A stretch of 64,000 nucleotides of DNA from Escherichia coli. Its GTDB lineage: Bacteria; Pseudomonadota; Gammaproteobacteria; Enterobacterales; Enterobacteriaceae. The notes under the pieces were generated by a model. The model was not told the origin of the DNA, ran no database searches, and saw only the letters and a list, made by a program, of their open reading frames with translations. The position numbers and the translations under genes are program-made. Positions within the stretch are counted from its first letter, which is position 1; each line of letters starts with the position of its first letter. Below, one piece after another: positions 1-19,895 of the stretch. The stretch lies in the NCBI RefSeq assembly GCF_024700885.2, contig NZ_CP117016.1, one strand, 5' to 3'.

Positions 1-215
1 AGTCAAATTTGTCCAACTTCCCTTGATTAAAAACAACGAGTTTTTTTATAGAAAAGAAAAACTTTCTCGCATAAGCTGAACTAAAATTCACAGCAGTATA
101 GGCAAGGGTCTCTTTTATAGATGCTAATAAGATAGCATTAATGTTTCTTTCAAAATATGAGAAATTTAATTTAACATCTTTGCTGAGAAACCAAACACTA
201 TCATGTAAACTAAAA

Positions 216-1547
216 TTATTTCTGCTGTCTTTTGCCTTTAATACCAAGTAATTTTCTAACATTAATGCTTTCATCTATTTCTCCTTCAATTTTATTTATG
301 ATTTCTTGATTCACTAAATCTGCCTCTTCAAAAGCTTTTAAAGTTTCTTCACTAATATAACGATTGTTATAAATCAAAGCCGTTTTGGAGTTCATTTTCC
401 ACCCCATTCTTACGCATCTGATTCTATCTAATTGGGTCAATCTATATTGATCAGTGACTCCTATGTATTTTAAACTGTAAATATAGTTCCATGTGTGCCG
501 TAGACAATGCCCTGTGAAATTTTGAAAAGATACTCCATTGAATTCAATTCTACTTATTTGCTTAATTACTTTATGATATGCACTTATTGACAGAGGAAAT
601 CCTTCCGTAGGACCAGATTTTTGAGTAATAAATAAGTAATTATGATTTAAGCTTTTCGAATAGAAAGACCTATCATTGTCTATATATGAAGAGATTTGCA
701 TAGACAATTTTTTGCTAATATTTAATTCTCGTTCAAATGTTTTAACAAGTGGTTGAAAAACTCTTGGGTCTGCTGGATCATTTATTCTTTTACAAACTTT
801 CAGATATCTTTTTTCCTTGTTAAAATCAGTAATTTTCAAGTTCAATAGCTCACCCCCTCGCATTCCAGTTTCCTGAAGAATGAGGATTATGAGTTGATTT
901 CTTTTACGGCAACTGATATCAACAAATGGATTGTATTGGCTTTCAGGTTCTATACATTGCAATAGAATGTCTAAGCTTTCTTTTTCTAATGATTTAAAAT
1001 CATTATTCAAATAGAATTGAGAGTTTAATTTTGGTTTATGTTTACGAAAAAGCAAACTAACACTTTTTGATATAATGTTTGTCTCATATATTGTAGTGCT
1101 AAAATATGATTCATAAATCCAAGAAATGTAGGAACTAATTACTGTCAATCTATAATGAAGATTTTCTTGATTGATCTTTTTATACTCTTTTATATCTATA
1201 ACTTTTTGTTTTTTATTTTTAACTCTAAGTTGTTCTGACAATGAATAGATTTCAGTAAAGCTAAGGAAGGTCTTAGATCTAATTCTTTCGATAAGATTTA
1301 TATTTGATTCTATTAGATAATTTTCAAAAGCAATCAAAGTGTAAGCATTTCTCAATACTGTATTAAATGACTTATTCTTTTGCTTATATAGCAAACTAAG
1401 ATATATATTTTGATAATACAATGGCAAACCGTTTTTTGAATCCAAAATCATACAAAATCTGCTTCCATCACTCGCCATTAACTTCTTTACTGAATATCTC
1501 CTATTCATTATCACCCCATAATTTATTTTTTTATTTATAGGTAACAT
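216..1547 (-). mobile_element. Tyrosine site-specific recombinase (phage integrase family), AT-rich foreign gene
   Basis: 443 aa ORF; recombinase motifs seen in translation: ETGMRGGELLNL (box I Arg), GHCLRHTWNY (H-x-x-R), LIYNNRY (candidate catalytic Tyr). Strongly AT-rich codon usage unlike flanking core genes. ATG at 1545-1547. Confidence 0.6.
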
Positions 1548-1626
1548 AATTTTTTAGCAAGTTACAAATTTATTTGCTATTATTTTCAATGACCTTATTA
1601 CTCGCGACTCTAATAAAGAATCGGCC

Positions 1627-1652
1627 ATATATTCACCTTAAGGTGAATATAT
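1627..1652. promoter_or_regulatory. Perfect 26-bp palindrome ATATATTCACCTTAAGGTGAATATAT just upstream of the tRNA cluster; candidate operator or recombinase site
   Basis: Read directly: 11-bp inverted arms around a TTAA centre, followed by TTGACG at 1661-1666. Function unverified. Confidence 0.3.
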
Positions 1653-1680
1653 ATTCCCTCTTGACGCTCCAAAAAACAAT

Positions 1681-1757
1681 GCGGTAGTAGTTCAGTTGGT
1701 CAGAATATTCCCCTGTCACGGGAATGGTCGTGGGTTCGAGTCCCATCTATCGCGCCA
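1681..1757 (+). tRNA. tRNA-Asp (anticodon GUC), island-borne
   Basis: Manual cloverleaf fold: acceptor GCGGTAG/CTATCGC, D arm GTTC/GAAT, anticodon stem TTCCC/GGGAA with loop CTGTCAC, T arm GTGGG-TTCGAGT-CCCAT, discriminator G, encoded CCA. Confidence 0.7.
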
Positions 1758-1761
1758 GAAA

Positions 1762-1836
1762 GGGCAATTAACTCATTGGTAGAGTGTATCTCTTACAAAG
1801 ATATGGCGGTTGGTTCGATTCCAACATTGCCCACCA
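1762..1836 (+). tRNA. tRNA-Val (anticodon UAC), island-borne
   Basis: Manual fold: acceptor GGGCAAT/ATTGCCC, D arm ACTC/GAGT, anticodon stem TATCT/AGATA with loop CTTACAA, T arm GTTGG-TTCGATT-CCAAC, encoded CCA. Differs from the chromosomal E. coli tRNA-Val sequence as recalled. Confidence 0.7.
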
Positions 1837-1847
1837 AAACATAAAAT

Positions 1848-1918
1848 GCGTCAGTATTTCAATGGTAGAATAAAACATTGCCAATGTTTAGGTGAGGGTT
1901 CGATCCCCCTATATTTAC
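1848..1918 (+). tRNA. tRNA-like element with Gly (GCC) anticodon arm; 3-prime acceptor strand not complementary, so possible pseudo-tRNA or recombination remnant
   Basis: D arm TTTC/GAAT, anticodon stem AAACA/TGTTT with loop TTGCCAA, T loop TTCGATC present. 5-prime acceptor GCGTCAG has no complementary 3-prime strand (ATATTTA) and no CCA. Confidence 0.3.
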
Positions 1919-2104
1919 TTTAGTTAGTAACTCATTGATATAAAATAAATAATAGAAAAGTGTAATTTGTTTTGTAAAGCACAAATAAGAAATTAGAAAA
2001 TATTTAAATGTACAGTGTACGAAAAATTAACCAACTATGTTAATGGCAACTATATGATGATAAAATTACTCATCTAACGATCTATATTATATGAGTAATG
2101 TTTC

Positions 2105-2680
2105 ATGGTACGAAAAATCTCTACATTTTTAAAGATAATAGGAGTTATAGGTTCTTTATGCGGGATTATTGCGACAGTATTCACAATCTATGCGTACTAC
2201 AACCCGACCTCCCCTTCTACTCAGAGATATGACAGTATTGTAGGAAGCTGGCTATCTGATTACTCTTACACCGTAAAAGGGAATACCGTTAGGGTTAATG
2301 GAAAAACGACCTTCTTCTCTAATGGAAAATACAACTTTCATGGCAGTATCTCTATTGACTCTAATGCTCCAGGTGACCATATATTAATAGATTATCTTTC
2401 TGATGGTGCTGGTGATTGGGAACTATATGATAATGAGTTAATTACATCATTAAATAGCCTAAAAACAAAACCTATGAAGCTGGCTTTAAATAACGAAGAT
2501 CTTGATCCACTGAAAATAGAGGTGATAAACAATAAAAAGTTACCAACTATTGAGGAGAATATGGCTGATGGGAAAAACCAATCCTATAAAATAATAAAAT
2601 CTTCAAAAAGCCAGTTAACATTGGAGGTTATTAACGAAATCGGAAGCAATTTCAACTTTACTATGCAAAAAACAAAATAG
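2105..2680 (+). CDS. Hypothetical membrane-anchored protein (single N-terminal TM helix), island cargo
   Basis: 191 aa ORF; hydrophobic N-terminus FLKIIGVIGSLCGIIATVFTIYAYY; AT-rich; convergent with the helicase gene and sharing a terminator with it. Confidence 0.45.
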   Translation: MVRKISTFLKIIGVIGSLCGIIATVFTIYAYYNPTSPSTQRYDSIVGSWLSDYSYTVKGNTVRVNGKTTFFSNGKYNFHGSISIDSNAPGDHILIDYLSDGAGDWELYDNELITSLNSLKTKPMKLALNNEDLDPLKIEVINNKKLPTIEENMADGKNQSYKIIKSSKSQLTLEVINEIGSNFNFTMQKTK

Positions 2681-2682
2681 AA

Positions 2683-2714
2683 ATGATGGCGATCTGAAAT
2701 CGCCATCATTTTTC
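2683..2714. terminator. Bidirectional rho-independent terminator between convergent genes
   Basis: Hairpin TGATGGCGAT-cugaa-ATCGCCATCA followed by TTTTT. Confidence 0.5.
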
Positions 2715-4560
2715 AACCTTGATAATCTTCAGCCTCGATACCACAATAAGTTATCATGTTTGTTATTAACGGTATATCATTACAATTCTGCTTGAAAGAC
2801 CTGCCATAACTATTGTTTCTTATTTTACAACGAGTCATTAATACTTCTTCAATGGCTCTTGAAAATGCCACAAAGACTGTTTTTTGATTTTCTATTTGCT
2901 CTTCTTCTTTACCAAAATAGGCACCAGGTTCAAGCCCCACAACGATGACCTTCCTGAACTCTAACCCTTTACTTTTATGGATGGTCATAAGAGGTATTGT
3001 TTTATTGCCAAGTAATAAATCAATGGCTTCTGATGTGTTTTCTTTTACATCTAACTTATCGAGGTGGCGAGAAAGTAATTCTATGCTATATTCTAAAACA
3101 TTCCCACTCATATACTGCGGAAAGTAAGACTTTATTTTATCGACACCAAATATACTTAATAATGAATATAAATAATCGACAATTTCTCCTTTAATTACCC
3201 GATGAGATTTAATAAACTGGCTAAGTTCTTTTTCTAACCGTGTAACATCACCTCTTTTACTTACTCCTCTTATATTACATAGAAGCTCCATTGTAGTGGC
3301 CCAGCTTTCTATGGATTTTCTATTACAGACAAACATTAGCATTTGTAAAAGTAACTGTACTACAGCTTCATTTAAAAGATCCTGATACTCGTTCTCAAGG
3401 CGACATTGTATTTTCAAATATTGCAATGCTGAAATGATATCGTCTGTATATTGTTTAGCCGGGTTTCTTAGCAGTATACATATATCTCTTTCATTTACTC
3501 CTTCAGCAATCCATTGCTGGATACATAATGCTATATATGCCCCTTCAATACTACTTTCGTCAAATTGTAGTAACTTAGCTGAACCTTCATTTTCAATCAA
3601 CATCATATCAGGCTTTATATCAGCATGATTCATGAAAGCTTCCATCATGCGTTGATAATTTATGAGGTTTTTTAATGACCTTCTATTGCTAACTAATTCA
3701 TTAGATTGTTCGATTCCAAAATCTTTTTTAAACACATCAAAAGCATTGTGCATTGCACCTGCCCAACCCATTATTCTTTGTTTTGTATCACCGACTGCTG
3801 TTATTTTTATTTTTTTACCCAAGAAAATGCTCTTAAAAATCTCATATTGCCTATATGTTGTGTCCTGAAACTCATCGATAAAAGCATAGTCATATGTTGA
3901 ATTTATAGCATTAGATAAATATTGATTCCTACTAATAATATAATTAGCAAGAAAATTAATCATCTTGAATGAAATCCTTGATTTTGGTTTTAATAAGTGT
4001 AACCACACAAACCGTCTTATCCTGCCATCAACAGAATGTTCTAATGCTTTATTATAAGGAGTTACTATATAATTCTCTTCAAAATTATAAGGTTGTAATT
4101 TATTTAATTCTTCAGATGTTAAACCTTCAAAGCCTACGGCCTCTCTTTTAATTTCTTCAACTAAATCATTATTATTTGGAAAGATTATTTCATAGTCATT
4201 TGATGGACGATAAGATTCCGGAATAGTGCTTTTAAAGCGATCAACAATACTTTTACAGAATGCATCAAATGTTGTTGATTCAAATTTGTGTCTATATTTT
4301 GTATCAAGCCGTGAGTTTACTCTATCTTGAAGATTTTTGGCCGCATCTTTTTTAAAGGATAATGCAATTATTTTTTTATTGCTGCATTTTCCTGTCTCAA
4401 TCAAGAAACAAGCTTTCTGAGCCAATAATTCTGTTTTACCTGCACCGGGACCAGCAAGAACGAGATTATGCCCTGTACTATTTCGAATTACCCTCATAGC
4501 CTCGTCTTCTACTTCTTGGATATCCTTTAAAACCCAATCGGCATCTTTAATAGTCGGCAT
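2713..4560 (-). CDS. UvrD/PcrA-like superfamily 1 helicase (GajB-like)
   Basis: 615 aa; SF1 helicase motifs in translation: LAGPGAGKTELL (I), IDEFQDTT (II), GDTKQRIMGW (III), VSNRRS (IV), TIHKSKGLEF (V), VAFSRA (VI). ATG overlaps the upstream stop by 1 nt (TAATG). Confidence 0.8.
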   Translation of the reverse strand: MPTIKDADWVLKDIQEVEDEAMRVIRNSTGHNLVLAGPGAGKTELLAQKACFLIETGKCSNKKIIALSFKKDAAKNLQDRVNSRLDTKYRHKFESTTFDAFCKSIVDRFKSTIPESYRPSNDYEIIFPNNNDLVEEIKREAVGFEGLTSEELNKLQPYNFEENYIVTPYNKALEHSVDGRIRRFVWLHLLKPKSRISFKMINFLANYIISRNQYLSNAINSTYDYAFIDEFQDTTYRQYEIFKSIFLGKKIKITAVGDTKQRIMGWAGAMHNAFDVFKKDFGIEQSNELVSNRRSLKNLINYQRMMEAFMNHADIKPDMMLIENEGSAKLLQFDESSIEGAYIALCIQQWIAEGVNERDICILLRNPAKQYTDDIISALQYLKIQCRLENEYQDLLNEAVVQLLLQMLMFVCNRKSIESWATTMELLCNIRGVSKRGDVTRLEKELSQFIKSHRVIKGEIVDYLYSLLSIFGVDKIKSYFPQYMSGNVLEYSIELLSRHLDKLDVKENTSEAIDLLLGNKTIPLMTIHKSKGLEFRKVIVVGLEPGAYFGKEEEQIENQKTVFVAFSRAIEEVLMTRCKIRNNSYGRSFKQNCNDIPLITNMITYCGIEAEDYQG

Positions 4561-6548
4561 TAAAGTAATCCTCTTACTGTTTCGATAATTTCATTAAGAA
4601 CTTCAGGACTATCATCTCTTAACTTATCGTCTTCCATTTTTGATAGAACATAATTGTGCGATAATGGTTTACCTCTTCCTAAAAATAGGTAACGATACCA
4701 AAAATATTTTTCATAATCATCGAACTCACTAATATCAATATCTTTCTCTTCTTTTTTCAAAACTGCAGCAATTGCCGATTTAACTTTATTATCATATTCA
4801 TGATCGTCATCTTTTGGCAATCTTGGCCCACCATTTTTGGGAACAAATGTCTTATAATCCTCAAAGAATTTATTAAGCATTAGCCAATCTAAATCGTAGG
4901 GGTAAGAAAAATAAACATTATAATCTTTTAGACAATTAATCCATGCCGATTCATTATCTTGATCCTCATCCCATGTATGCATTTTTTCAAGCTCTTCATC
5001 ACTTAAAGTTCCTGAAGTAATACTTAACAATTCATTTTTATCTGCACCTATAGATATTAATTGTTTGACTGCATATTTAATTCTTCCCCAACCACCACCT
5101 CCTCCTCTCTTGAAATCATAGTCGAGAAGAGTCACATGTGGAATTGAAAGCTCATTGAGTAACTTCCAAAAATGATTAACATATCGCCCTCCTAATGGAG
5201 CAAATGTTATCAATGAAGTGTCAAGCTCTATACCATTTACTTGAGCTATTTTAGGTATTACTATTTCTTCGCTATCACCTTCACCAAGTATTACAACTTT
5301 TGCAAAATAAATTTCTGGATATGCCTTCACTGCTTCTTTTACATAAGTGAAAGTATCAACATTGTCTCCATCGTCTTCATCTTCGCTTGGTAATAATATT
5401 GGTTTGACAACAGTATTTTTATTATCATGTAGACGAAAATACCTTATATTTTCTGGTTCTACTCTATTGAGTAATGAAGGTGCGTGTGTTGTTAAAACAA
5501 CCTGTGCTCGATCATTCTCAGATATATCTTCACATAGTTTAACTATTCTTCCTAAATATTGGGGTGAAAGATGATTTTCTGGTTCTTCGATTAATATTAT
5601 CGTTAAATTTGGAGGATCTAATGCTTCTACTGATATTGATAATTCATTTTCTCCTGAATTAATGATCTCATCTTCAATATCAAATGCAGATTTGACTAAC
5701 GAAAGATAAAACAATGACTTCATACCATCACTCAATCTTTCAGTTGGTAATGGCTGAGTCACCGGAGTAGGCATAAATACAGTATCTATATGCTTTAATA
5801 CATCTTCTATTCCATTCATTACTGGCTGAATTTTAAGCTGTTCAAAATACCCTCCGCTAAAAAGAGTTTTCCAATTTCTGCCCAATGAAGATGTTATTGT
5901 CTGAACCCCAATTTCTTCTTGGAACTGGTTTCCGATTGATTCTGCAACCTCATCAACCGTTGAACTCATCTGTTCAGACCATTCAACTGCATTTATCAAA
6001 CGGTGCATGATGGTTCCGGCTGTTTGCTTCAGTTGTTGAGCAGGATCGCGATAAGCAGGGACATAATGAACATGGATTTTTGATCTTTCATATGCTGTAA
6101 TATTTTTTTCATATTCTCCTATTTCCCATACTAAATCACTATCTATATCCCCTTCTGCAAGATTAGTTTTTGTCCATTTAGCTTTTAATTTTGCTATACA
6201 GTATGGGATCTGGTCTGCTTCATTTGAGACCAAATGCTTAAAGAAATCAGCGACTGAATCGTCCTCACCATCTTGCAGATCTGCAAATTCAAATTTTACA
6301 CGAACTGATAATTCTCTTTCATCTTGAGTATCGATTTCATCTCCAGGAGGAACATAAAAATCATCAACTTGAACAATTCTATCGGAGCTTTTGACACCAA
6401 ACATCCTTGTCAATGCGAGGAGAACAGCCGTCTTACCTGTTCCATTCCCTCCAATTAAGCTGGTGAATGAATTTATATTTATAGTTTGCCCTACATTATC
6501 AAAGCTCTTAAAACCTTTGATCTCCATTTGTGTAATTTTCATTATCAC
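4560..6548 (-). CDS. OLD-family ABC-type ATPase with C-terminal TOPRIM nuclease domain (GajA-like)
   Basis: 662 aa ORF from a GTG; likelier ATG start at 6542 with GAGGTG Shine-Dalgarno. Walker A GGNGTGKT, ILIEEPENHLSP (Walker B/D-loop typical of OLD ATPases), VLTTHAP (H-loop), TOPRIM-like VVILGEGDSEEIV and LLDYDFKRGGGGGWG. Confidence 0.8.
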   Translation of the reverse strand: MIMKITQMEIKGFKSFDNVGQTININSFTSLIGGNGTGKTAVLLALTRMFGVKSSDRIVQVDDFYVPPGDEIDTQDERELSVRVKFEFADLQDGEDDSVADFFKHLVSNEADQIPYCIAKLKAKWTKTNLAEGDIDSDLVWEIGEYEKNITAYERSKIHVHYVPAYRDPAQQLKQTAGTIMHRLINAVEWSEQMSSTVDEVAESIGNQFQEEIGVQTITSSLGRNWKTLFSGGYFEQLKIQPVMNGIEDVLKHIDTVFMPTPVTQPLPTERLSDGMKSLFYLSLVKSAFDIEDEIINSGENELSISVEALDPPNLTIILIEEPENHLSPQYLGRIVKLCEDISENDRAQVVLTTHAPSLLNRVEPENIRYFRLHDNKNTVVKPILLPSEDEDDGDNVDTFTYVKEAVKAYPEIYFAKVVILGEGDSEEIVIPKIAQVNGIELDTSLITFAPLGGRYVNHFWKLLNELSIPHVTLLDYDFKRGGGGGWGRIKYAVKQLISIGADKNELLSITSGTLSDEELEKMHTWDEDQDNESAWINCLKDYNVYFSYPYDLDWLMLNKFFEDYKTFVPKNGGPRLPKDDDHEYDNKVKSAIAAVLKKEEKDIDISEFDDYEKYFWYRYLFLGRGKPLSHNYVLSKMEDDKLRDDSPEVLNEIIETVRGLL

Positions 6549-7195
6549 CTCAATTGCTGTTTTAAAAAATTATAATCACTAATTATTTCTGCGTTTGTAA
6601 TGATTTCTTGTGAGCACAGCTTAAAACATTCTAAAAATATATTTTTATTATCGTTATGTTCCCAATGTTTTTTCAAAGCTTCTTCAATTGAAATCCAAAT
6701 AACTTGAAAATCGTTATTAGATATTTGGCTTGTTAAAACTGTTTCTTCCACACAAAGTATATGCCCTAAGATGACATCATCGTATATGTCAGTATCTGAA
6801 TCTCTAACTCCTAACCTTTTTATTTTCCTTTTTTGGATGATTTTATTTTTAACAATAAAAGGATGTTCTTCTATAAAATCGGTCAATGATGTAAAAGCCA
6901 AGCCACGAACCTGAGCACCATGCATTGAACTATTTACTTTATGGATATCTCTCCAAACTCGCAGATCACCTAATACATAGAGAACCCGCTGATTTCTCGC
7001 TTTCGTATCTTCTGCTTGGTATTGGATATAAGGTGGCCCTCCCCCATTTTGTCTATATCGGGCAAGGGTTTTGATGCTTATGCCAAGAAAGACAGAAGCA
7101 AGCTCACTATTTACAGTGGCAGAATCAGGCATTTGACCAAATAGTTTCCATACCTCTGAATACTCCCGCAAAACTTCCACCACACTCATCTTCAC
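6545..7195 (-). CDS. HTH-domain protein (excisionase/MerR-like N-terminus plus uncharacterised ~130 aa C-terminal domain), first gene of the defense operon
   Basis: 216 aa ORF (GTG at 7195 or ATG at 7189). N-terminal ELASVFLGISIKTLARYRQNGGGPPYIQY resembles excisionase-type HTH. Starts within 2 nt of the integrase stop and ends 2 nt before the GajA-like start. Confidence 0.5.
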   Translation of the reverse strand: MKMSVVEVLREYSEVWKLFGQMPDSATVNSELASVFLGISIKTLARYRQNGGGPPYIQYQAEDTKARNQRVLYVLGDLRVWRDIHKVNSSMHGAQVRGLAFTSLTDFIEEHPFIVKNKIIQKRKIKRLGVRDSDTDIYDDVILGHILCVEETVLTSQISNNDFQVIWISIEEALKKHWEHNDNKNIFLECFKLCSQEIITNAEIISDYNFLKQQLR

Positions 7196-8655
7196 TCCCT
7201 CGTTTCAGGTAATGGAGGATACTTAGCCGAAGCAAGTAACACATTGTATAATTTAGGAGCAGTCATAAGCATATGCAACTCAATCCTTTGTAATGCTTCA
7301 AAAATCCGTTCTTGATCAGGTTCTGCATACCTTTCTGTTGGATCTGTTGTATTTCTGTGATTGAGCAGTCTCTTAACGACGGCATATGAAACAAGTTCTT
7401 CAGCAACCCTACCAAATGTCCTTCGTAGATCATGCATACCAAGCTTCAGGATTCCCGCCTCTTGGCAGATATATTCCCTTAGACTTTTACTATCGGAATA
7501 GTGACCAACTTTACTTCGAGAAGAACGGGCCGGGAAAACCCACTTCTGTTTGTCCTTCTGGGTTACCGTATCGTTTACTATGTCTCTTCTATCTTCCAAA
7601 ATTCTTTTGACAGCATCACAAATCGGAAGCTCGTGATCGTTTCGATTCTTAGTGTCGTAAAAACGGATAGTTCTGTTACTCAGGTCAACATAGCTTGTCG
7701 TTTTAGCTTCTTCCTTTGTAAGAGACTCTCGCCAACACAGAGAAGCTGTTTCTTCCTTACGAGCACCTAAGAGAACGGTAAGTAGCAGATAATCGCACCC
7801 AAGCCGGTTGAAGCTTCTCTTGTTGAACAATGCAGTCAAGAACCGACCAAGTGTATCCTTTGGTGATAAGGGGTTTCTGACACCTTTTGCCCGATAACTA
7901 TCCTCAAGCTCAGAACGTGTCCTAAACTTTTTCTGTACCTTTAAGATACTGAAAGGGTTGTAAGATAGAGAAGGTTGTCGTTGCTGGGTCTGAGCATTCC
8001 CAGCTTCAATCTCTATTGCGTGTTTTACAGCAACATTCGCCCACCTAAAGGTCTGTTCCGCTGCTGTTCTGGCTCTTGAAGCAATCTCATCAAACTTCCT
8101 AAGAATTTCATTACCAGTAAGATCTTTAACTCGCAAACCAGCCCACTCAGAAAGCCTGTTTTCTGCTTTATCTAATACAGCCAAGGTGTTGGGTTTAGCT
8201 GGTTTCGCTCTACCCAGCAGATGCTGGCGGTATTGTGCAAACACTTCACTGATAGTGAGTTCAGAAGCATCGGACTCCCGTTTTATTTTGTTAGGGTTCC
8301 TTTTGGTCAACTTCATGGTTTGAACTAAATTGCGAGCAACCTCGCGGGCTTGATCGATGTTAGCGAAATCAGAGACATTGCCAATTGTAGACCTGATAAC
8401 CTCAGATGGGGATTTTCCCCCTGTCTTAGGGCGATTGCCAGGAGAAGAGACTCGTCGCTGAACGATATAGGTCTTTTTCGTTGCACTGATTTTGACACCA
8501 AAACCAACGGGTGAATCCCGGTGATTATCAGTGATAAGATACGGTTTTCGCTCTGGATTGGGTAAGTAGACTACTCTGCCTTGCGGATCAAGGCTCGGTT
8601 TCACGTCGATAGATAACTTATTGATTATAATCGACTGATTGAGTGTCATTTTCAT
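7192..8655 (-). mobile_element. int: P4-type tyrosine integrase
   Basis: ORF track 7192..8763; trimmed to internal ATG (MKMTLNQ...) at 8653-8655. N-terminal arm-binding-like region (YLITDNHRDSPVGFGVKISATKKTYIVQRR), box I ARKEE, HDLRRTF, C-terminal ERY. Near-host GC, unlike the cargo. Confidence 0.8.
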
Positions 8656-8658
8656 CGA

Positions 8659-8717
8659 TGTATACCAGTGGTTCAAGTGTGTATACCAGATAGTAGCTAG
8701 AATACTTCTGGTATACA
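8659..8717. repeat. Three copies of TGTATACCAG (two direct, one inverted) at the integrase 5-prime end; candidate integrase-binding or att-associated sites
   Basis: Exact 10-mers at 8659-8668 and 8680-8689 (direct) and 8708-8717 (inverted), between the integrase start and mutS. Confidence 0.45.
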
Positions 8718-8787
8718 AATTTATGGGTTTATGTGAGTTTAAAGGGGTATCACTTGGGGCCACATAAGTACTCAGAAGACTTTAAAA

Positions 8788-11370
8788 ATGAGTAAAATCA
8801 ATATGAAAGAGTCTGCAAGCAAGGATCTATCAGACCACACTCCTATGATGCAGCAATATCTCAAGCTGAAAGCCCAGCATCCCGAGATCCTGCTGTTTTA
8901 CCGGATGGGTGATTTTTATGAACTGTTTTATGACGACGCAAAACGCGCGTCGCAACTGCTGGATATTTCACTGACCAAACGCGGTGCTTCGGCGGGAGAG
9001 CCGATCCCGATGGCGGGGATCCCCTACCATGCGGTGGAAAACTACCTCGCCAAACTGGTGAATCAGGGCGAGTCCGTTGCCATCTGCGAACAAATTGGCG
9101 ATCCGGCGACCAGCAAAGGTCCGGTTGAGCGCAAAGTTGTGCGTATCGTTACGCCAGGCACCATCAGCGATGAAGCCCTGTTGCAGGAGCGTCAGGACAA
9201 CCTGCTGGCGGCTATCTGGCAGGACAGCAAAGGTTTCGGCTACGCGACGCTGGATATCAGTTCCGGGCGTTTTCGCCTGAGCGAACCGGCTGACCGCGAA
9301 ACGATGGCGGCAGAGCTGCAACGCACTAATCCGGCAGAGCTGTTGTATGCAGAAAATTTCGCCGAGATGTCGCTGATTGAAGGTCGTCGCGGACTGCGCC
9401 GTCGCCCGCTATGGGAGTTTGAAATCGACACCGCGCGCCAGCAGTTGAATCTGCAATTTGGCACCCGCGATCTGGTCGGTTTTGGCGTCGAGAACGCGCC
9501 GCGCGGACTTTGTGCTGCCGGTTGTCTGTTGCAGTATGCGAAAGATACCCAACGTACGACTCTGCCGCATATTCGTTCCATCACCATGGAACGTGAGCAG
9601 GACAGCATCATTATGGATGCCGCGACGCGTCGTAATCTGGAAATCACCCAGAACCTGGCGGGTGGTGCGGAAAATACGCTGGCTTCTGTGCTCGACTGCA
9701 CCGTCACGCCGATGGGCAGCCGTATGCTGAAACGCTGGCTGCATATGCCAGTGCGCGATACCCGCGTCTTGCTTGAGCGCCAGCAAACTATTGGCGCATT
9801 GCAGGATTTCACCGCCGAGCTGCAGCCGGTACTGCGTCAGGTCGGCGACCTGGAACGTATTCTGGCGCGTCTGGCTTTACGAACTGCTCGCCCACGCGAT
9901 CTGGCCCGTATGCGTCACGCTTTCCAGCAACTGCCGGAGCTGCGTGCGCTATTAGAAAATGTCGATAGCGCTCCGGTACAGGCGCTGCGTGAAAAAATGG
10001 GCGAGTTTGCCGAGCTGCGCGATCTGCTGGAGCGAGCAATCATCGACACACCGCCAGTGCTGGTACGCGACGGTGGTGTTATCGCACCGGGCTATAACGA
10101 AGAGCTGGATGAGTGGCGCGCGCTGGCTGACGGCGCGACCGATTATCTGGAGCGTCTGGAAGTCCGCGAGCGTGAACGTACTGGCCTGGACACCCTGAAA
10201 GTCGGCTTTAACGCGGTTCATGGTTATTACATTCAGATCAGCCGTGGACAAAGCCATCTGGCACCCATCAATTACATGCGTCGCCAGACGCTGAAAAACG
10301 CCGAGCGCTACATTATTCCAGAGCTAAAAGAGTACGAAGACAAAGTTCTCACTTCAAAAGGCAAAGCACTGGCACTGGAAAAACAGCTTTATGAAGAGTT
10401 GTTCGACCTGCTGTTGCCGCATCTGGAAGCGTTGCAACAGAGCGCGAGCGCGCTGGCGGAACTCGACGTGCTGGTGAACCTGGCAGAACGGGCCTATACG
10501 CTGAACTACACCTGCCCGACCTTTATTGATAAACCGGGTATTCGCATCACCGAAGGCCGCCATCCGGTGGTTGAACAGGTGCTGAATGAGCCGTTTATCG
10601 CCAACCCGCTGAACCTGTCGCCGCAGCGTCGCATGTTGATCATTACCGGTCCGAATATGGGCGGTAAAAGTACCTATATGCGCCAGACCGCACTGATTGC
10701 GCTGATGGCCTACATCGGCAGCTATGTACCGGCACAAAAAGTCGAGATTGGACCTATCGATCGCATCTTTACCCGCGTAGGGGCAGCGGATGATCTGGCA
10801 TCCGGGCGTTCAACCTTTATGGTGGAAATGACCGAAACCGCCAATATTTTACATAACGCCACCGAGTACAGTCTGGTGCTGATGGATGAGATTGGGCGCG
10901 GGACGTCCACTTACGATGGTCTGTCGCTGGCGTGGGCGTGCGCGGAAAATCTGGCGAATAAGATTAAAGCGTTGACACTGTTTGCCACCCACTATTTCGA
11001 GCTGACCCAGTTACCGGAGAAAATGGAAGGCGTCGCCAACGTGCATCTCGATGCGCTGGAGCACGGCGACACCATTGCCTTTATGCACAGCGTGCAGGAT
11101 GGCGCGGCGAGCAAAAGCTACGGCCTGGCGGTTGCAGCTCTGGCAGGCGTGCCAAAAGAGGTTATTAAGCGCGCACGGCAAAAACTGCGTGAGCTGGAAA
11201 GCATTTCGCCGAACGCCGCCGCTACGCAAGTGGATGGTACGCAAATGTCTTTGCTGTCAGTGCCAGAAGAAACGTCGCCTGCGGTCGAGGCACTGGAAAA
11301 CCTCGACCCGGATTCACTGACTCCGCGTCAGGCGCTGGAGTGGATTTATCGCTTGAAGAGTCTGGTGTAA
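8788..11370 (+). CDS. mutS: DNA mismatch repair protein MutS, with a non-K-12 N-terminus
   Basis: 860 aa; near-identical to E. coli MutS from about residue 17 (HTPMMQQYL...). First ~16 residues ([16 protein letters not shown]) differ from the K-12 N-terminus (MSAIENFDA, from memory). Confidence 0.95.
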
Positions 11371-18467: not shown

Positions 18468-19895
18468 TTATTTACGTGCGGCCAGCATAGCGGTCAGTTT
18501 TTCAGCCCAGGCTTTGGTTTCCGGTAAATCCACCACCGGCTGGCTGTAGTGACCACGGTTGTCCGGGGCGACAGGCGTGGTGGCGTCGATAATCAGCTTG
18601 TCGGTGATACCGGCCGGGCTTGAGCCGGGGTCGAGTTCCAGCACGGACATATTCGGCAACTGCACCAAATCCCCTGCCGGGTTCACTTTCGAAGAGAGCG
18701 CCCACATCACCTGCGGCAGGTTGAACGGATCAACGTCTTCATCGACCATAATCACCATCTTCACGTAGCCCAGACCGTGTGGCGTGGTCATCGCACGCAG
18801 GCCCACCGCGCGGGCAAAGCCACCGTAGCGTTTTTTGGTGGAGATAATCGCCAGCAGGCCGTGGGTGTACATGGCGTTCACCGCCTGCACTTCCGGGAAC
18901 TCGGCTTTCAGTTGCTGATACAGCGGCACGCAGGTGGCTGGCCCCATCAGGTAGTCGATTTCTGTCCACGGCATGCCGAGGTACAGCGATTCGAAAATCG
19001 GCCTGGTGCGGTAAGAGACTTTATCGATACGCACCACGGTCATGTTACGCCCGCCGGAGTAGTGCCCGGTAAACTCACCGAACGGCCCTTCGATTTCGCG
19101 TTTACGGCTTTCGATGACCCCTTCGAGGATCACCTCCGAGCCCCACGGCACATCAAAACCGGTCAATGGCGCGGTGGCGATCGGATACGGGCTTTCGCGC
19201 AGCGCGCCTGCCATTTCATACTCAGACTGATCGTATTTCAGCGGCGTGGCCCCCATCAGGGTGATGATCGGATCGTTACCGAGCGTGATTGCAATCGGCA
19301 GATCTTCACCGCGCTCTTCTGCTTTATGCAGATGCAGGGCGATATCGTGCATCGGCACCGGTTGCAGGCCGAGCTTACGCTTGCCCTTCACTTCCATGCG
19401 GTAGATGCCGACGTTCTGCTTGCCGAAGTTATCCGGATCAAGCGGATCGCGGGAAACCACGCACGCTTTGTCGAGATAGAAACCGCCATCGCCATCGTTT
19501 AAACGAAACAGCGGCAGGATATCGAACAGGTTGATCTCGTCGCCATCGACGGTGTTCTGCGCCCAGGCTGGATTGGCGCGGCGCTCCGGGGCAATCGGGA
19601 AGTTATCCCAGCGGCGGATAAACTCATCAATCTGCTTTTTGACCGGGGTGTTTGGCGGCAGGCCGAGGGAAATCGCGTGGTTCTGCCAGGAACCGATGGT
19701 ATTCATCGCCACACGGGCATCGGTAAAGCCGCGAATATTATCAAACCACAGCGCGGGCGCGCCGTCGCCGATACGCCCGGTGGCGTTAGCTGCTGCTGCC
19801 AGATCCGGTTCCGCGTTCACCTCTTCGCTGATTTTCAGTAACTGTCCGTGGTCATCAAGCGCCTGTAAAAAGCTGCGTAAATCATCAAATGCCAT
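18468..19895 (-). CDS. UbiD-family (prenyl-FMN-dependent) aromatic acid decarboxylase subunit
   Basis: 475 aa; UbiD-like throughout; overlaps upstream UbiX-like gene by 1 nt. Confidence 0.85.
   Translation of the reverse strand: MAFDDLRSFLQALDDHGQLLKISEEVNAEPDLAAAANATGRIGDGAPALWFDNIRGFTDARVAMNTIGSWQNHAISLGLPPNTPVKKQIDEFIRRWDNFPIAPERRANPAWAQNTVDGDEINLFDILPLFRLNDGDGGFYLDKACVVSRDPLDPDNFGKQNVGIYRMEVKGKRKLGLQPVPMHDIALHLHKAEERGEDLPIAITLGNDPIITLMGATPLKYDQSEYEMAGALRESPYPIATAPLTGFDVPWGSEVILEGVIESRKREIEGPFGEFTGHYSGGRNMTVVRIDKVSYRTRPIFESLYLGMPWTEIDYLMGPATCVPLYQQLKAEFPEVQAVNAMYTHGLLAIISTKKRYGGFARAVGLRAMTTPHGLGYVKMVIMVDEDVDPFNLPQVMWALSSKVNPAGDLVQLPNMSVLELDPGSSPAGITDKLIIDATTPVAPDNRGHYSQPVVDLPETKAWAEKLTAMLAARK

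What the first reader, a model, noticed from the sequence alone, without database searches (positions are those of the whole stretch)
2105..2680. Small membrane-anchored protein convergent with the defense operon
191-aa AT-rich ORF with one N-terminal transmembrane helix and no recognisable family, sharing a bidirectional terminator with the helicase gene. It could be unrelated cargo or an accessory (for example Abi-like) membrane factor.
Basis: inference. Interest (0 to 1): 0.35.

Follow-up and report, generated by a model that had tools for sequence, protein, structure and literature searches.

The report
Orphan ToxS-like membrane protein beside Gabija
The small gene next to the Gabija defence operon is real and encodes a membrane-anchored protein whose periplasmic part resembles the Vibrio bile sensors ToxS and VtrC; it belongs to the mobile island itself rather than to Gabija, and its function is untested.

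Summary
Window 2105-2680 (+) is a 191-aa, 34% GC gene with one N-terminal transmembrane helix. It runs convergent to gajB and is separated from it by a strong hairpin at 2681-2711.

The gene sits in a ~17.8 kb integrative mobilizable element inserted in the 5' end of E. coli mutS. Homologues at 40-46% identity hold the same position in related elements that carry NACHT, DUF2971, Hachiman or unknown cargo. A DRT3-carrying variant lacks the gene. More distant relatives lie in ICEs, a T4SS locus and other defence islands, and never next to a ToxR-like gene.

It is therefore an independent accessory gene of the mobile element, not a Gabija component or an Abi effector. The most likely mechanism is periplasmic binding of a ligand or partner, possibly an exclusion function. 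That is inference only.

The parts
2105..2680 (+). Coding sequence of the 191-aa orphan ToxS/VtrC-like protein (RefSeq WP_032230123.1)
   Evidence: ORF listing and RefSeq annotation. 43 close homologues. dN/dS 0.15-0.30.
2126..2200 (+). N-terminal signal-anchor transmembrane helix (about residues 8-32). The preceding MVRKIST segment is the only cytoplasmic part.
   Evidence: Hydropathy peak at residues 8-26, score 2.2. AlphaFold helix 2-32. There is no lipobox, and the single Cys is not conserved in the 40% clade.
2237..2677 (+). Periplasmic eight-stranded lipocalin-like barrel with an inserted helix (residues ~45-191). It carries the invariant G47-x-W49, the Y/F-F-S-N-G-K-Y-N motif and G103-x-W105.
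2062..2102 (+). 16-nt inverted repeat (AAAATTACTCATCTAA / TTATATGAGTAATGTT) ending 2 nt before the start codon. It could be an operator or a hairpin that covers the ribosome-binding region.
   Evidence: Repeat search. The repeat is conserved in the Dickeya and MAG islands. Its function was not tested.
1905..2104 (+). Conserved upstream (promoter) region of the gene. Its first ~110 bp survive even in the DRT3 element, which lacks the gene.
   Evidence: blastn joints and alignment A3. The consensus scan called no sigma-70 site on the + strand here.
2681..2711 (.). Hairpin terminator shared with the convergent gajB
   Evidence: Perfect 13-bp arms. Fold energy -19.6 / -21.3 kcal/mol, z -6.6 / -5.5. 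Terminator scan.
2713..6548 (-). Context, not part of the gene unit: Gabija operon, gajB 2713-4560 and gajA 4560-6548
   Evidence: PADLOC GajB E 2.6e-198, GajA E 1.9e-240. Pfam UvrD, AAA_15 and OLD-like TOPRIM.
6545..8763 (-). Context: element backbone. The 216-aa HTH_17-like protein lies at 6545-7195 and the mutS-targeting tyrosine integrase at 7192-8763.
   Evidence: Pfam. Backbone protein alignment. The integrase family occurs in 133 of 5426 E. coli genomes.
8835..8858 (+). Context: att direct repeat inside the 5' end of mutS. It marks the right end of the ~17.8 kb element that contains the gene.
   Evidence: 24-nt imperfect direct repeat with the ygbA-side end. It is a unique match in the window. 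The same att flanks the 10.4 kb relative L026.
216..1547 (-). Context: first gene of a ginABCD-like operon (two tyrosine recombinases, a 548-aa protein and a 127-aa protein) that diverges from the ORF
   Evidence: Pfam Phage_integrase. Annotation. GInt definition from PMC5385486.

Best explanation
The ORF is a real gene. It encodes a bitopic inner-membrane protein with about 7 cytoplasmic residues, one signal-anchor helix and a ~150-residue periplasmic domain. That domain is an eight-stranded lipocalin-like barrel with an inserted helix. It is a remote homologue of ToxS and VtrC, the barrels that bind bile salts and the periplasmic domain of the membrane-bound regulators ToxR and VtrA.

Unlike ToxS and VtrC, it is an orphan with no ToxR/VtrA-type gene beside it. 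It is carried as an independently transcribed accessory gene at a fixed position in a family of integrative, mostly mobilizable, elements that insert into the 5' end of mutS in Enterobacterales. That position is the edge of the variable defence-cargo slot.

It is not a component of Gabija.

Inferred mechanism: it acts in the periplasm by binding a hydrophobic ligand, a periplasmic segment of another membrane protein, or both. Given that every genomic context seen is a mobile element or defence island, the most likely benefit is an envelope-level exclusion or protection function, such as blocking DNA entry by a phage or a competing conjugative element.

Shown here: gene reality, topology, fold, remote ToxS/VtrC relationship, orphan status, and independence from Gabija. 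Inferred only: ligand or partner binding, and the exclusion role.
For: Gene reality:
- ORF and annotation agree.
- 43 close homologues of constant length with 34 invariant positions.
- 172 cluster representatives at E <= 1e-3.
- dN/dS 0.15-0.30.

Topology and fold:
- Single hydrophobic segment.
- AlphaFold pLDDT 93.7, pTM 0.78; helix 2-32, then eight main strands and helix 135-142.

ToxS/VtrC relationship:
- All 8 Foldseek PDB hits with E <= 1e-3 are ToxS or VtrC; the next hit is at 8.5e-3.
- The wide family profile hits ToxS chains at E 2.4e-4 and 7.2e-4 over the Y-x-x-N-G-x-Y ... G-x-W region.
- hhalign gives 84% probability, E 7.7e-6.
- Two family members weakly hit Pfam ToxS.

Orphan status:
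- No wHTH+TM protein exists anywhere in the island.
- No such protein appears in any of about 11 distinct contexts.

Independence from Gabija:
- Convergent orientation and a strong hairpin.
- No PADLOC hit.
- Homologues in the same slot sit with NACHT, DUF2971, Hachiman or unknown cargo, or with no cargo.
- An IS1 insertion interrupts the gene in one E. coli island.

Mobile-element association of distant relatives:
- Downstream of virB8-11.
- At ICE edges with RAQPRD, DUF3262 and DtrJ-like genes.
- Convergent with a DarT/DarG-like/UvrD operon.
- In an IS/toxin-antitoxin/DruA island.

Known biology of the relatives: PMC9214523, PMC10624426 and bioRxiv 10.64898/2026.01.06.697910.
Against: - No function was tested.
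- The exclusion role rests only on context and topology.
- The protein matches no known exclusion, Abi or defence family in PADLOC, PHROGs or BFVD.
- The close family is absent from the phage and plasmid collections and from IMG/VR. That is unusual for superinfection or entry exclusion genes.
- The element has a relaxase but no T4SS of its own, so classical entry exclusion is not obviously needed.
- The sequence link to ToxS is weak. The narrow profile A1 misses it and ORF191 itself does not hit Pfam ToxS.
- ToxS and VtrC barrels are reported to be unstable without their partner. An orphan barrel may therefore still need an unidentified partner.
- Within E. coli the high-identity clade co-occurs 13 of 13 with one Gabija lineage. 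A lineage-specific functional tie is therefore not strictly excluded.
Confidence: 0.6

Rival explanations
1. It is a ToxS-like co-component that works with a partner encoded elsewhere. The barrel would bind the periplasmic domain of a host or helper-element membrane-bound regulator or other bitopic protein. It would stabilise or modulate that partner in response to a hydrophobic signal such as bile salts. The island would thereby rewire host signalling rather than exclude invaders.
For: - The only characterised relatives, ToxS and VtrC, work exactly this way, and their barrels need a partner strand.
- The fold and motif match is best to these proteins.
- Distant family members fuse the domain to a cytoplasmic Ser/Thr kinase or a zinc ribbon through a TM segment, as expected of a sensor domain.
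- The hosts are enteric bacteria exposed to bile.
Against: - The defining two-gene cassette is absent here and in all ~11 contexts examined.
- No wHTH+TM protein exists in the island.
- A partner encoded in trans would have to be conserved across Escherichia, Klebsiella, Serratia, Rahnella, Dickeya and Pantoea, while the barrel itself diverges to 40% identity.
Confidence: 0.2
2. It is a general fitness cargo gene: a periplasmic stress chaperone or lipid-binding protein in the manner of HslJ or Blc. It would improve envelope robustness, for example tolerance of bile or fatty acids, and would be unrelated to phage or plasmid conflict.
For: - The ToxS fold has been described as related to stress-responsive periplasmic chaperones.
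- The hosts are gut and plant-associated Enterobacterales.
Against: - All contexts seen are mobile elements or defence islands, never envelope-stress or metabolic operons.
- The gene is rare, found by blastn in about 31 of 5426 E. coli genomes.
- It evolves fast while keeping its position, which fits a conflict gene better than a housekeeping-type chaperone.
Confidence: 0.12
3. It is a lineage-specific accessory of this Gabija variant. For example, it could act as a membrane factor that tunes or complements GajAB.
For: - The high-identity clade (>= 78%) is always next to Gabija: 13 of 13 E. coli genomes, Dickeya, an Erwinia MAG and another MAG contig.
- In the comparison with the DRT3 element, the gene lies inside the swapped segment, window 2014-6875.
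Against: - The gene is convergent and separately terminated.
- It has no cytoplasmic domain through which to contact GajA or GajB.
- Homologues occupy the same slot with four other cargo types, or with none.
- In L007 GajB is only 71% identical while the ORF stays at 91% and GajA at 93%, so the block is a mosaic rather than co-evolving.
- The gene is interrupted by IS1 in one island.
- Established knowledge (PADLOC and the literature) defines Gabija as a two-gene system.
Confidence: 0.05
4. It is a decaying passenger with no current function, kept only by linkage to the element.
For: - It is absent from some related elements (L002, L037).
- It is disrupted in one or two E. coli islands.
- No promoter was called by the consensus scan.
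Against: - The frame is intact at constant length across genera down to 40% identity.
- 34 positions are invariant.
- dN/dS is 0.15-0.30.
- The fold is predicted with high confidence.
Confidence: 0.03

Closest known systems
ToxS (Vibrio ToxR/ToxS; Pfam PF17323; PDB 8ALO, 8U2F)
   Different: There is no adjacent toxR-like gene. ORF191 itself does not reach any Pfam ToxS score. It is carried on a mobile element rather than in the core genome. Ligand and partner are unknown.
VtrC (Vibrio parahaemolyticus VtrA/VtrC bile-salt receptor; PDB 5KEV, 5KEW, 8DML) and the co-component superfamily of Kinch et al. 2022 (YqeJ, FidL, PsaF, BprQ, TcpH)
   Different: The defining tandem or overlapping cassette with a VtrA-like wHTH-TM-periplasmic regulator is missing. 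The FidL/YqeJ-type disulfide is absent, because the one Cys lies in the TM helix. No sequence-level link to VtrC was found.
Small membrane-anchored superinfection or entry exclusion proteins of mobile elements (for example P22 SieA, T5 Llp, conjugative Eex/TrbK-type proteins; from my own knowledge and the titles listed)
   Same: It is a single small gene on a mobile element. The product is exposed to the periplasm, diverges fast and is transcribed on its own. One distant relative lies just downstream of virB8-virB11 genes, a position I recall exclusion genes occupying in some conjugative T4SS operons; this was not checked here.
   Different: There is no sequence or fold match to any of them. 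The close family is absent from the phage and plasmid collections. The function is untested.
Gabija (GajA/GajB)
   Same: It is the physical neighbour and shares a terminator hairpin with gajB. It is co-inherited with one Gabija lineage.
   Different: It matches no Gabija model, sits on the opposite strand and has no cytoplasmic domain. Its homologues accompany other systems.

Membership tests
ToxS/VtrC co-component superfamily (Kinch et al. 2022, PMC9214523) | N-terminal TM helix or signal peptide followed by a periplasmic domain | tested here: met
   Hydropathy peak at residues 8-26. AlphaFold helix 2-32 followed by a beta domain. Positive charges (MVRK) lie on the N-terminal side.
ToxS/VtrC co-component superfamily (Kinch et al. 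2022, PMC9214523) | Eight-stranded lipocalin-like (VtrC-like) barrel fold | tested here: met
ToxS/VtrC co-component superfamily (Kinch et al. 2022, PMC9214523) | Encoded directly downstream of, or overlapping, a ToxR/VtrA-like gene (N-terminal wHTH, TM helix, periplasmic alpha/beta domain) | tested here: not met
   The nearest upstream features are tRNA genes and a divergent recombinase. No protein in the island combines an HTH with a TM helix. No Trans_reg_C/TM neighbour appears in ~11 contexts of relatives.
ToxS/VtrC co-component superfamily (Kinch et al. 2022, PMC9214523) | Detectable sequence relationship to a member family (ToxS, PF17323) | tested here: inconclusive
   The wide profile A2 hits ToxS chains at E 2.4e-4 and 7.2e-4. 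hhalign gives 84% probability over 60 columns. Two members hit PF17323 at 0.003 and 0.024. However, ORF191 alone and the narrow profile A1 do not.
ToxS/VtrC co-component superfamily (Kinch et al. 2022, PMC9214523) | Binds bile salts or another hydrophobic ligand and forms an obligate heterodimer with its regulator | not testable with these tools
   This needs purified protein (ITC, DSF, crystallography) or interaction assays.
Gabija defence system | Matches a GajA or GajB model, or is a recognised system gene | tested here: not met
   ORF191 has 0 PADLOC families, while both neighbours score E < 1e-190.
Gabija defence system | Co-transcribed with gajA and gajB | tested here: not met
   It lies on the opposite strand, convergent, with a -20 kcal/mol hairpin in the 32-bp gap.
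Gabija defence system | Co-occurs with Gabija across related islands and not with other cargo | tested here: not met
   The high-identity clade is with Gabija. The 40-46% clade in the same slot is with NACHT, DUF2971, Hachiman, unknown genes or nothing.
Abortive-infection type membrane effectors | A cytoplasmic sensing or activation surface, or several TM helices able to form a pore | tested here: not met
   There is one TM segment and about 7 cytoplasmic residues; the rest is a soluble-type periplasmic barrel. No PADLOC hit.
Known superinfection or entry exclusion proteins | Homology to a described exclusion protein, or carriage by phages or conjugative plasmids | tested here: not met
   No PHROG, PADLOC or BFVD match. 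No tblastn match in 50,697 phage or 72,556 plasmid records. None in IMG/VR. The function itself is not testable here.
Bacterial lipoproteins (one homologue is named 'Lipoprotein' by UniRef) | Lipobox [LVI][ASTVI][GAS]C at the end of a signal peptide | tested here: not met
   The sequence around the only Cys is G-S-L-C-G, and hydrophobic residues continue after it. The Cys is not conserved in the 40% clade.

The most novel reading that the evidence does not exclude
Orphan ToxS/VtrC-like barrels may form a previously undescribed class of single-gene, envelope-acting conflict factors of mobile elements. They would sit in the inner membrane, face the periplasm, and block entry of phage or conjugative DNA, or sense it, without any cytoplasmic partner. 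That would explain why they recur at the edge of defence-cargo slots in IMEs, ICEs and defence islands.
Probability: 0.2. Interest if true: 0.65.

Novelty: new variant of a known kind. Interest (0 to 1): 0.4.

Why it matters
ToxS and VtrC are known only as obligate partners of membrane-bound virulence regulators. This work indicates a sizeable relative family, with 172 cluster representatives at 50% identity, that has the same architecture but no adjacent partner gene and lives on mobile elements and defence islands. If these orphans act on their own, the fold has a second role outside virulence signalling. They would then be candidates for a cheap single-gene envelope defence or exclusion function.

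For annotating this window the practical point is simpler. The gene should not be counted as part of Gabija. It marks the edge of the cargo slot in a mutS-targeting integrative element.

Tried and rejected
- Curated family searches on ORF191 (Pfam, PADLOC, NCBIfam, PHROGs) gave nothing except two sub-threshold Pfam hits (DUF6556, DUF4064). Both cover only the TM helix, residues 6-44, so I treat them as spurious.
- tblastn of ORF191 and of a distant relative (P0057) against the plasmid collection, and of ORF191 against the phage collection, found no match.
- The IMG/VR scan found no relatives.
- The afdb50 fold library was unavailable. The BFVD viral fold search had no hit at E <= 1e-3.
- The narrow family profile A1 against PDB sequences missed ToxS. 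Only the wide profile A2 reaches it.
- I looked for a ToxR-like partner among all island proteins by Pfam and hydropathy and found none.
- I searched the window for an internal copy of the mutS att repeat near the ORF, which would have made it a terminal gene of a smaller element. None was found (a search of L001 with the ygbA-side copy of the repeat also found nothing).
- The sigma-70 consensus scan called no + strand promoter between 1837 and 2105. The region is too AT-rich for this to be informative.
- The lipoprotein reading was rejected because there is no lipobox and the Cys is not conserved.
- The literature search for entry exclusion plus lipocalin found nothing relevant. The E. coli defence-island survey does not mention mutS in its main text.
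- The genome-collection hit labelled as a Bacteroidales MAG (L007) is about 87% identical in DNA to the E. coli island. I treat it as misbinned enterobacterial DNA, not as evidence of wide host range.

Full report
**1. The observation**

The window carries an ORF at 2105..2680 on the + strand, with an ATG start and 191 codons. RefSeq annotates the same coordinates as a hypothetical protein, WP_032230123.1, in E. coli MLI114, whose chromosome matches window 1-9000 over 100% of its length at 100.0% identity.

- GC content is 34.2%, like the rest of the island (34.5%) and unlike the flanking chromosome (51.6%).
- Hydropathy finds one transmembrane-type segment at residues 8-26. AlphaFold models a helix over residues 2-32.
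- The stop codon is 32 bp from the stop of the convergent gene at 2713..4560.
- That gap is filled by a perfect 13-bp inverted repeat, 2681-2693 / 2699-2711.
- The repeat folds at -19.6 kcal/mol on the + strand and -21.3 on the - strand, with z-scores of -6.6 and -5.5. T-runs flank it on both sides.
- The convergent gene is GajB (PADLOC E 2.6e-198) and the gene upstream of it is GajA (E 1.9e-240).

**2. It is a real gene**

- A word-indexed search found 43 homologues in Enterobacterales at 40-94% identity. Most are full length, 183-199 aa.
- An alignment of 23 of them has 34 invariant positions. These include G47-x-W49, the block F71-S-N-G-K-Y-N77, and G103-x-W105.
- An exhaustive profile search of 1.84 billion cluster representatives found 172 proteins at E <= 1e-3 and 87 at E <= 1e-10. 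Most have the same length and the same N-terminal hydrophobic segment.
- Nei-Gojobori estimates give dN/dS of 0.15-0.30 wherever dS is not saturated.

**3. What the protein is**

No curated library places it. Pfam gives only two sub-threshold hits over the TM helix, and PADLOC, NCBIfam and PHROGs give nothing.

*Structure.* With the 23-sequence alignment the model had pLDDT of about 80 in the soluble domain. With the 84-sequence alignment it reached mean pLDDT 93.7 and pTM 0.78 with the same topology. That topology is a helix at 2-32, a short linker, five long strands, a short strand (131-133) and a helix at 135-142, then three more strands.

*Fold searches:*

| Search | Result |
|---|---|
| Foldseek, whole PDB | Exactly eight hits at E <= 1e-3, all ToxS or VtrC chains; next hit at 8.5e-3 |
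| Wide family profile vs PDB sequences | Two ToxS sequences at E 2.4e-4 and 7.2e-4, aligning the Y-F-x-N-G-x-Y motif with ToxS Y-L-P-N-G-x-Y and the G-x-W...L motif with G-x-W...L |
| hhalign on the same ToxS fragment | 84% probability, E 7.7e-6 over 60 columns |

Two family members touch Pfam ToxS weakly. The narrow profile does not reach ToxS. The sequence link is therefore remote, and the structural link carries most of the weight.

ToxS and VtrC are bitopic inner-membrane proteins. Their periplasmic lipocalin-like barrels bind bile salts and form obligate heterodimers with the periplasmic domains of the membrane-bound transcription factors ToxR and VtrA (PMC9214523; PMC10624426; bioRxiv 10.64898/2026.01.06.697910).

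**4. It is an orphan**

The co-component family is defined by a two-gene cassette. A ToxR/VtrA-like gene (wHTH, TM, periplasmic domain) lies immediately upstream of, often overlapping, the barrel gene.

Here the features upstream of the ORF are two tRNA genes and a divergently transcribed recombinase. No protein in the whole island combines a DNA-binding domain with a TM helix. None of the roughly eleven distinct genomic contexts I retrieved for relatives shows such a neighbour. The FidL/YqeJ-type disulfide is also absent, because the only Cys lies in the TM helix.

**5. Where it sits**

The island lies between ygbA and mutS. It is flanked by a 24-nt imperfect direct repeat. One copy lies in the first codons of mutS, at window 8835-8858, so the ~17.8 kb element is inserted in the 5' end of mutS.

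From mutS inwards the element carries:
- a 523-aa tyrosine integrase;
- a 216-aa HTH_17-like protein;
- GajA and GajB;
- the ORF;
- beyond the window's left edge, a four-gene operon of two tyrosine recombinases, a 548-aa protein and a 127-aa protein;
- small envelope proteins and a relaxase.

The four-gene operon looks like the ginABCD operon of GInt islands. The whole is thus an integrative mobilizable element.

**6. Is it tied to Gabija?**

Within E. coli, the high-identity form of the ORF occurs in 13 of 5426 complete genomes. All are in this island, and they are the same 13 genomes that carry this gajA lineage. Dickeya undicola, an Erwinia MAG and a misbinned MAG contig show the same block. 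That is linkage, not proof of function. Other evidence argues against a functional tie.

*The same slot in related elements holds other cargo* (synteny by tblastn):

| Locus | Host | Cargo next to the ORF homologue (40-46% identity) |
|---|---|---|
| L003/L004, L026-L033 | metagenomic and NCBI contigs | NACHT protein |
| L006 | Serratia marcescens | DUF2971/PDC-S31-like gene |
| L011 | Citrobacter | DUF2971 gene, with Hachiman beyond the backbone gene |
| L012 | Rahnella | Nothing between it and the backbone gene; Hachiman on the other side |
| L010, L034-L036 | Klebsiella and three inspected E. coli | Unknown 184-aa gene, plus a 224-aa gene in L010 and L035 |

*The gene is dispensable.*
- An E. 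coli element with a 96% identical recombinase carries DRT3 and has no family member at all.
- Another mutS element (L037) also lacks it.
- In one E. coli island the ORF is split by IS1.

*The block is a mosaic.* In L007 GajA is 93% identical, the ORF 91%, but GajB only 71%.

*The geometry is wrong for a partner.* The gene is convergent and separately terminated, and its product has about seven cytoplasmic residues with which to meet GajA or GajB.

In E. coli the integrase family is present in 133 genomes. The ORF family is detectable by blastn in 13 + 18 of them.

**7. The wider family**

Relatives at E 1e-42 to 1e-26 are all found in mobile or defence contexts:
- next to HNH and PLD-like genes;
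- convergent with a DarT/DarG-like/UvrD operon, beside an integrase and an ImmA/HTH pair;
- a few genes downstream of virB8-virB11 on a contig with a TrwC relaxase;
- beside ICE genes (Plasmid_RAQPRD, DUF3262, DtrJ-like) in two genomes;
- in an IS/toxin-antitoxin/DruA/methylase island.

Some distant members fuse the domain, through a TM segment, to a cytoplasmic Ser/Thr kinase or a zinc ribbon, or to an FGE-sulfatase domain. This fits an extracytoplasmic binding or sensing module.

The close family is not found in phage genomes, PLSDB plasmids or IMG/VR. No viral structure matches.

**8. How it most likely works**

*Shown.* It is a bitopic membrane protein whose bulk is a periplasmic ToxS/VtrC-like barrel. 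It is encoded as an independent unit at a conserved position in mutS-targeting integrative elements. It is under purifying selection but diverges fast.

*Inferred.* It binds something hydrophobic, or a periplasmic stretch of another membrane protein. Because it can only act outside the cytoplasm and is always carried by mobile elements beside defence cargo, the most economical role is envelope-level exclusion or protection. I give about 0.3 to that specific role. I give 0.6 to the overall statement: an orphan ToxS-like periplasmic binding module, independent element cargo, not part of Gabija.

*Rivals:*
- a ToxS-like co-component with a partner encoded in trans (0.2);
- a periplasmic stress or lipid chaperone as fitness cargo (0.12);
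- a lineage-specific Gabija accessory (0.05);
- a functionless passenger (0.03).

**9. Novelty and score**

The fold and its closest relatives are known. An orphan branch of the ToxS/VtrC kind that is borne on mobile elements and has no curated family appears not to be described in the literature I could search. I rate it a new variant of a known kind.

Interest is moderate at 0.4. It corrects the annotation (not a Gabija gene, not Abi-like) and offers a testable single-gene candidate, but no function has been shown.

Noticed in passing
window 1654-1904: This is a 251-bp insertion carrying tRNA-Asp(GTC) at 1681-1757, tRNA-Val(TAC) at 1762-1836, and a truncated tRNA-like piece at 1855-1910 (Rfam 34.4 bits). 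It is present in only 4 of the 13 E. coli Gabija-type islands and absent from the Dickeya and DRT3 relatives. It has no other blastn match in 5426 E. coli genomes, so these are not copies of host tRNA genes. The nearest matches are ~78% identical tRNA-Asp genes of jumbo phages. It sits exactly at the conserved CCCCTATATTTAC joint.
   Followed up: partly
window 8788-8858 and L025 647-670 / 18484-18507: The island is inserted in the 5' end of mutS and is flanked by a 24-nt imperfect direct repeat that encodes HTPMMQQY. The element appears to supply a new MutS N-terminus, and presumably a promoter: the longest ORF here is 860 aa, RefSeq annotates an 855-aa MutS, and island-free MutS is 853 aa from my own knowledge. 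A 10.4 kb relative (L026) is flanked by the same att.
   Followed up: partly
window 216-1547 and leftwards (L025 7997-12610): A four-gene operon of two tyrosine recombinases, a 548-aa protein with no Pfam hit, and a 127-aa protein resembles the ginABCD operon that defines GInt islands. It is nested inside the mutS element. Identity to the Dickeya island changes from 73% to 91% at window ~1658-1906, just upstream of its first gene.
   Followed up: partly
window 6545-7195 (-): The 216-aa backbone protein has an N-terminal half (HTH_17-like) that is 67-75% identical across all related elements outside the Gabija block. Its C-terminal half is only 22-27% identical in those elements. The right boundary of the variable cargo region falls in the middle of this gene, at about window 6876, in every comparison.
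   Followed up: partly
window 2062-2102: A 16-nt inverted repeat ends 2 nt before the ORF's start codon and is conserved in L007 and L008. It could be an operator or a hairpin that sequesters the ribosome-binding region.
   Followed up: no
L010 9703-9718, L012 9687-9704, L026 ~5070-5090; window 1905-1918 (half site): Palindromes of the type TCCCCCTA/TAGGGGGA lie between the gin-like operon (or a truncated relaxase region in L026) and the ORF homologue. The window has only a half site, next to the tRNA insertion. This is a possible recombination site.
   Followed up: no
L007 (whole locus) versus window 1906-7977: Within the Gabija block, GajA is 93% identical and the ORF 91%, but GajB only 71%. 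This suggests a recombination exchange inside the Gabija operon. The contig is labelled as a Bacteroidales MAG but is ~87% identical in DNA to the E. coli island, so it is probably misbinned.
   Followed up: no
L002, L011, L012, L003/L004, L026-L033: The same mutS-targeting element family carries DRT3, Hachiman (HamA/HamB, E down to 1e-297), NACHT proteins, DUF2971/PDC-S31-like genes and unknown genes in two cargo slots. One slot lies on each side of the 200-aa backbone gene.
   Followed up: partly
L025 13191-13802 (-), left of the window: Next to the relaxase the island encodes a 104-aa lipoprotein (lipobox LTAC) and a 92-aa zinc-ribbon protein with one TM helix. These are further small envelope proteins of unknown role.
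   Followed up: no
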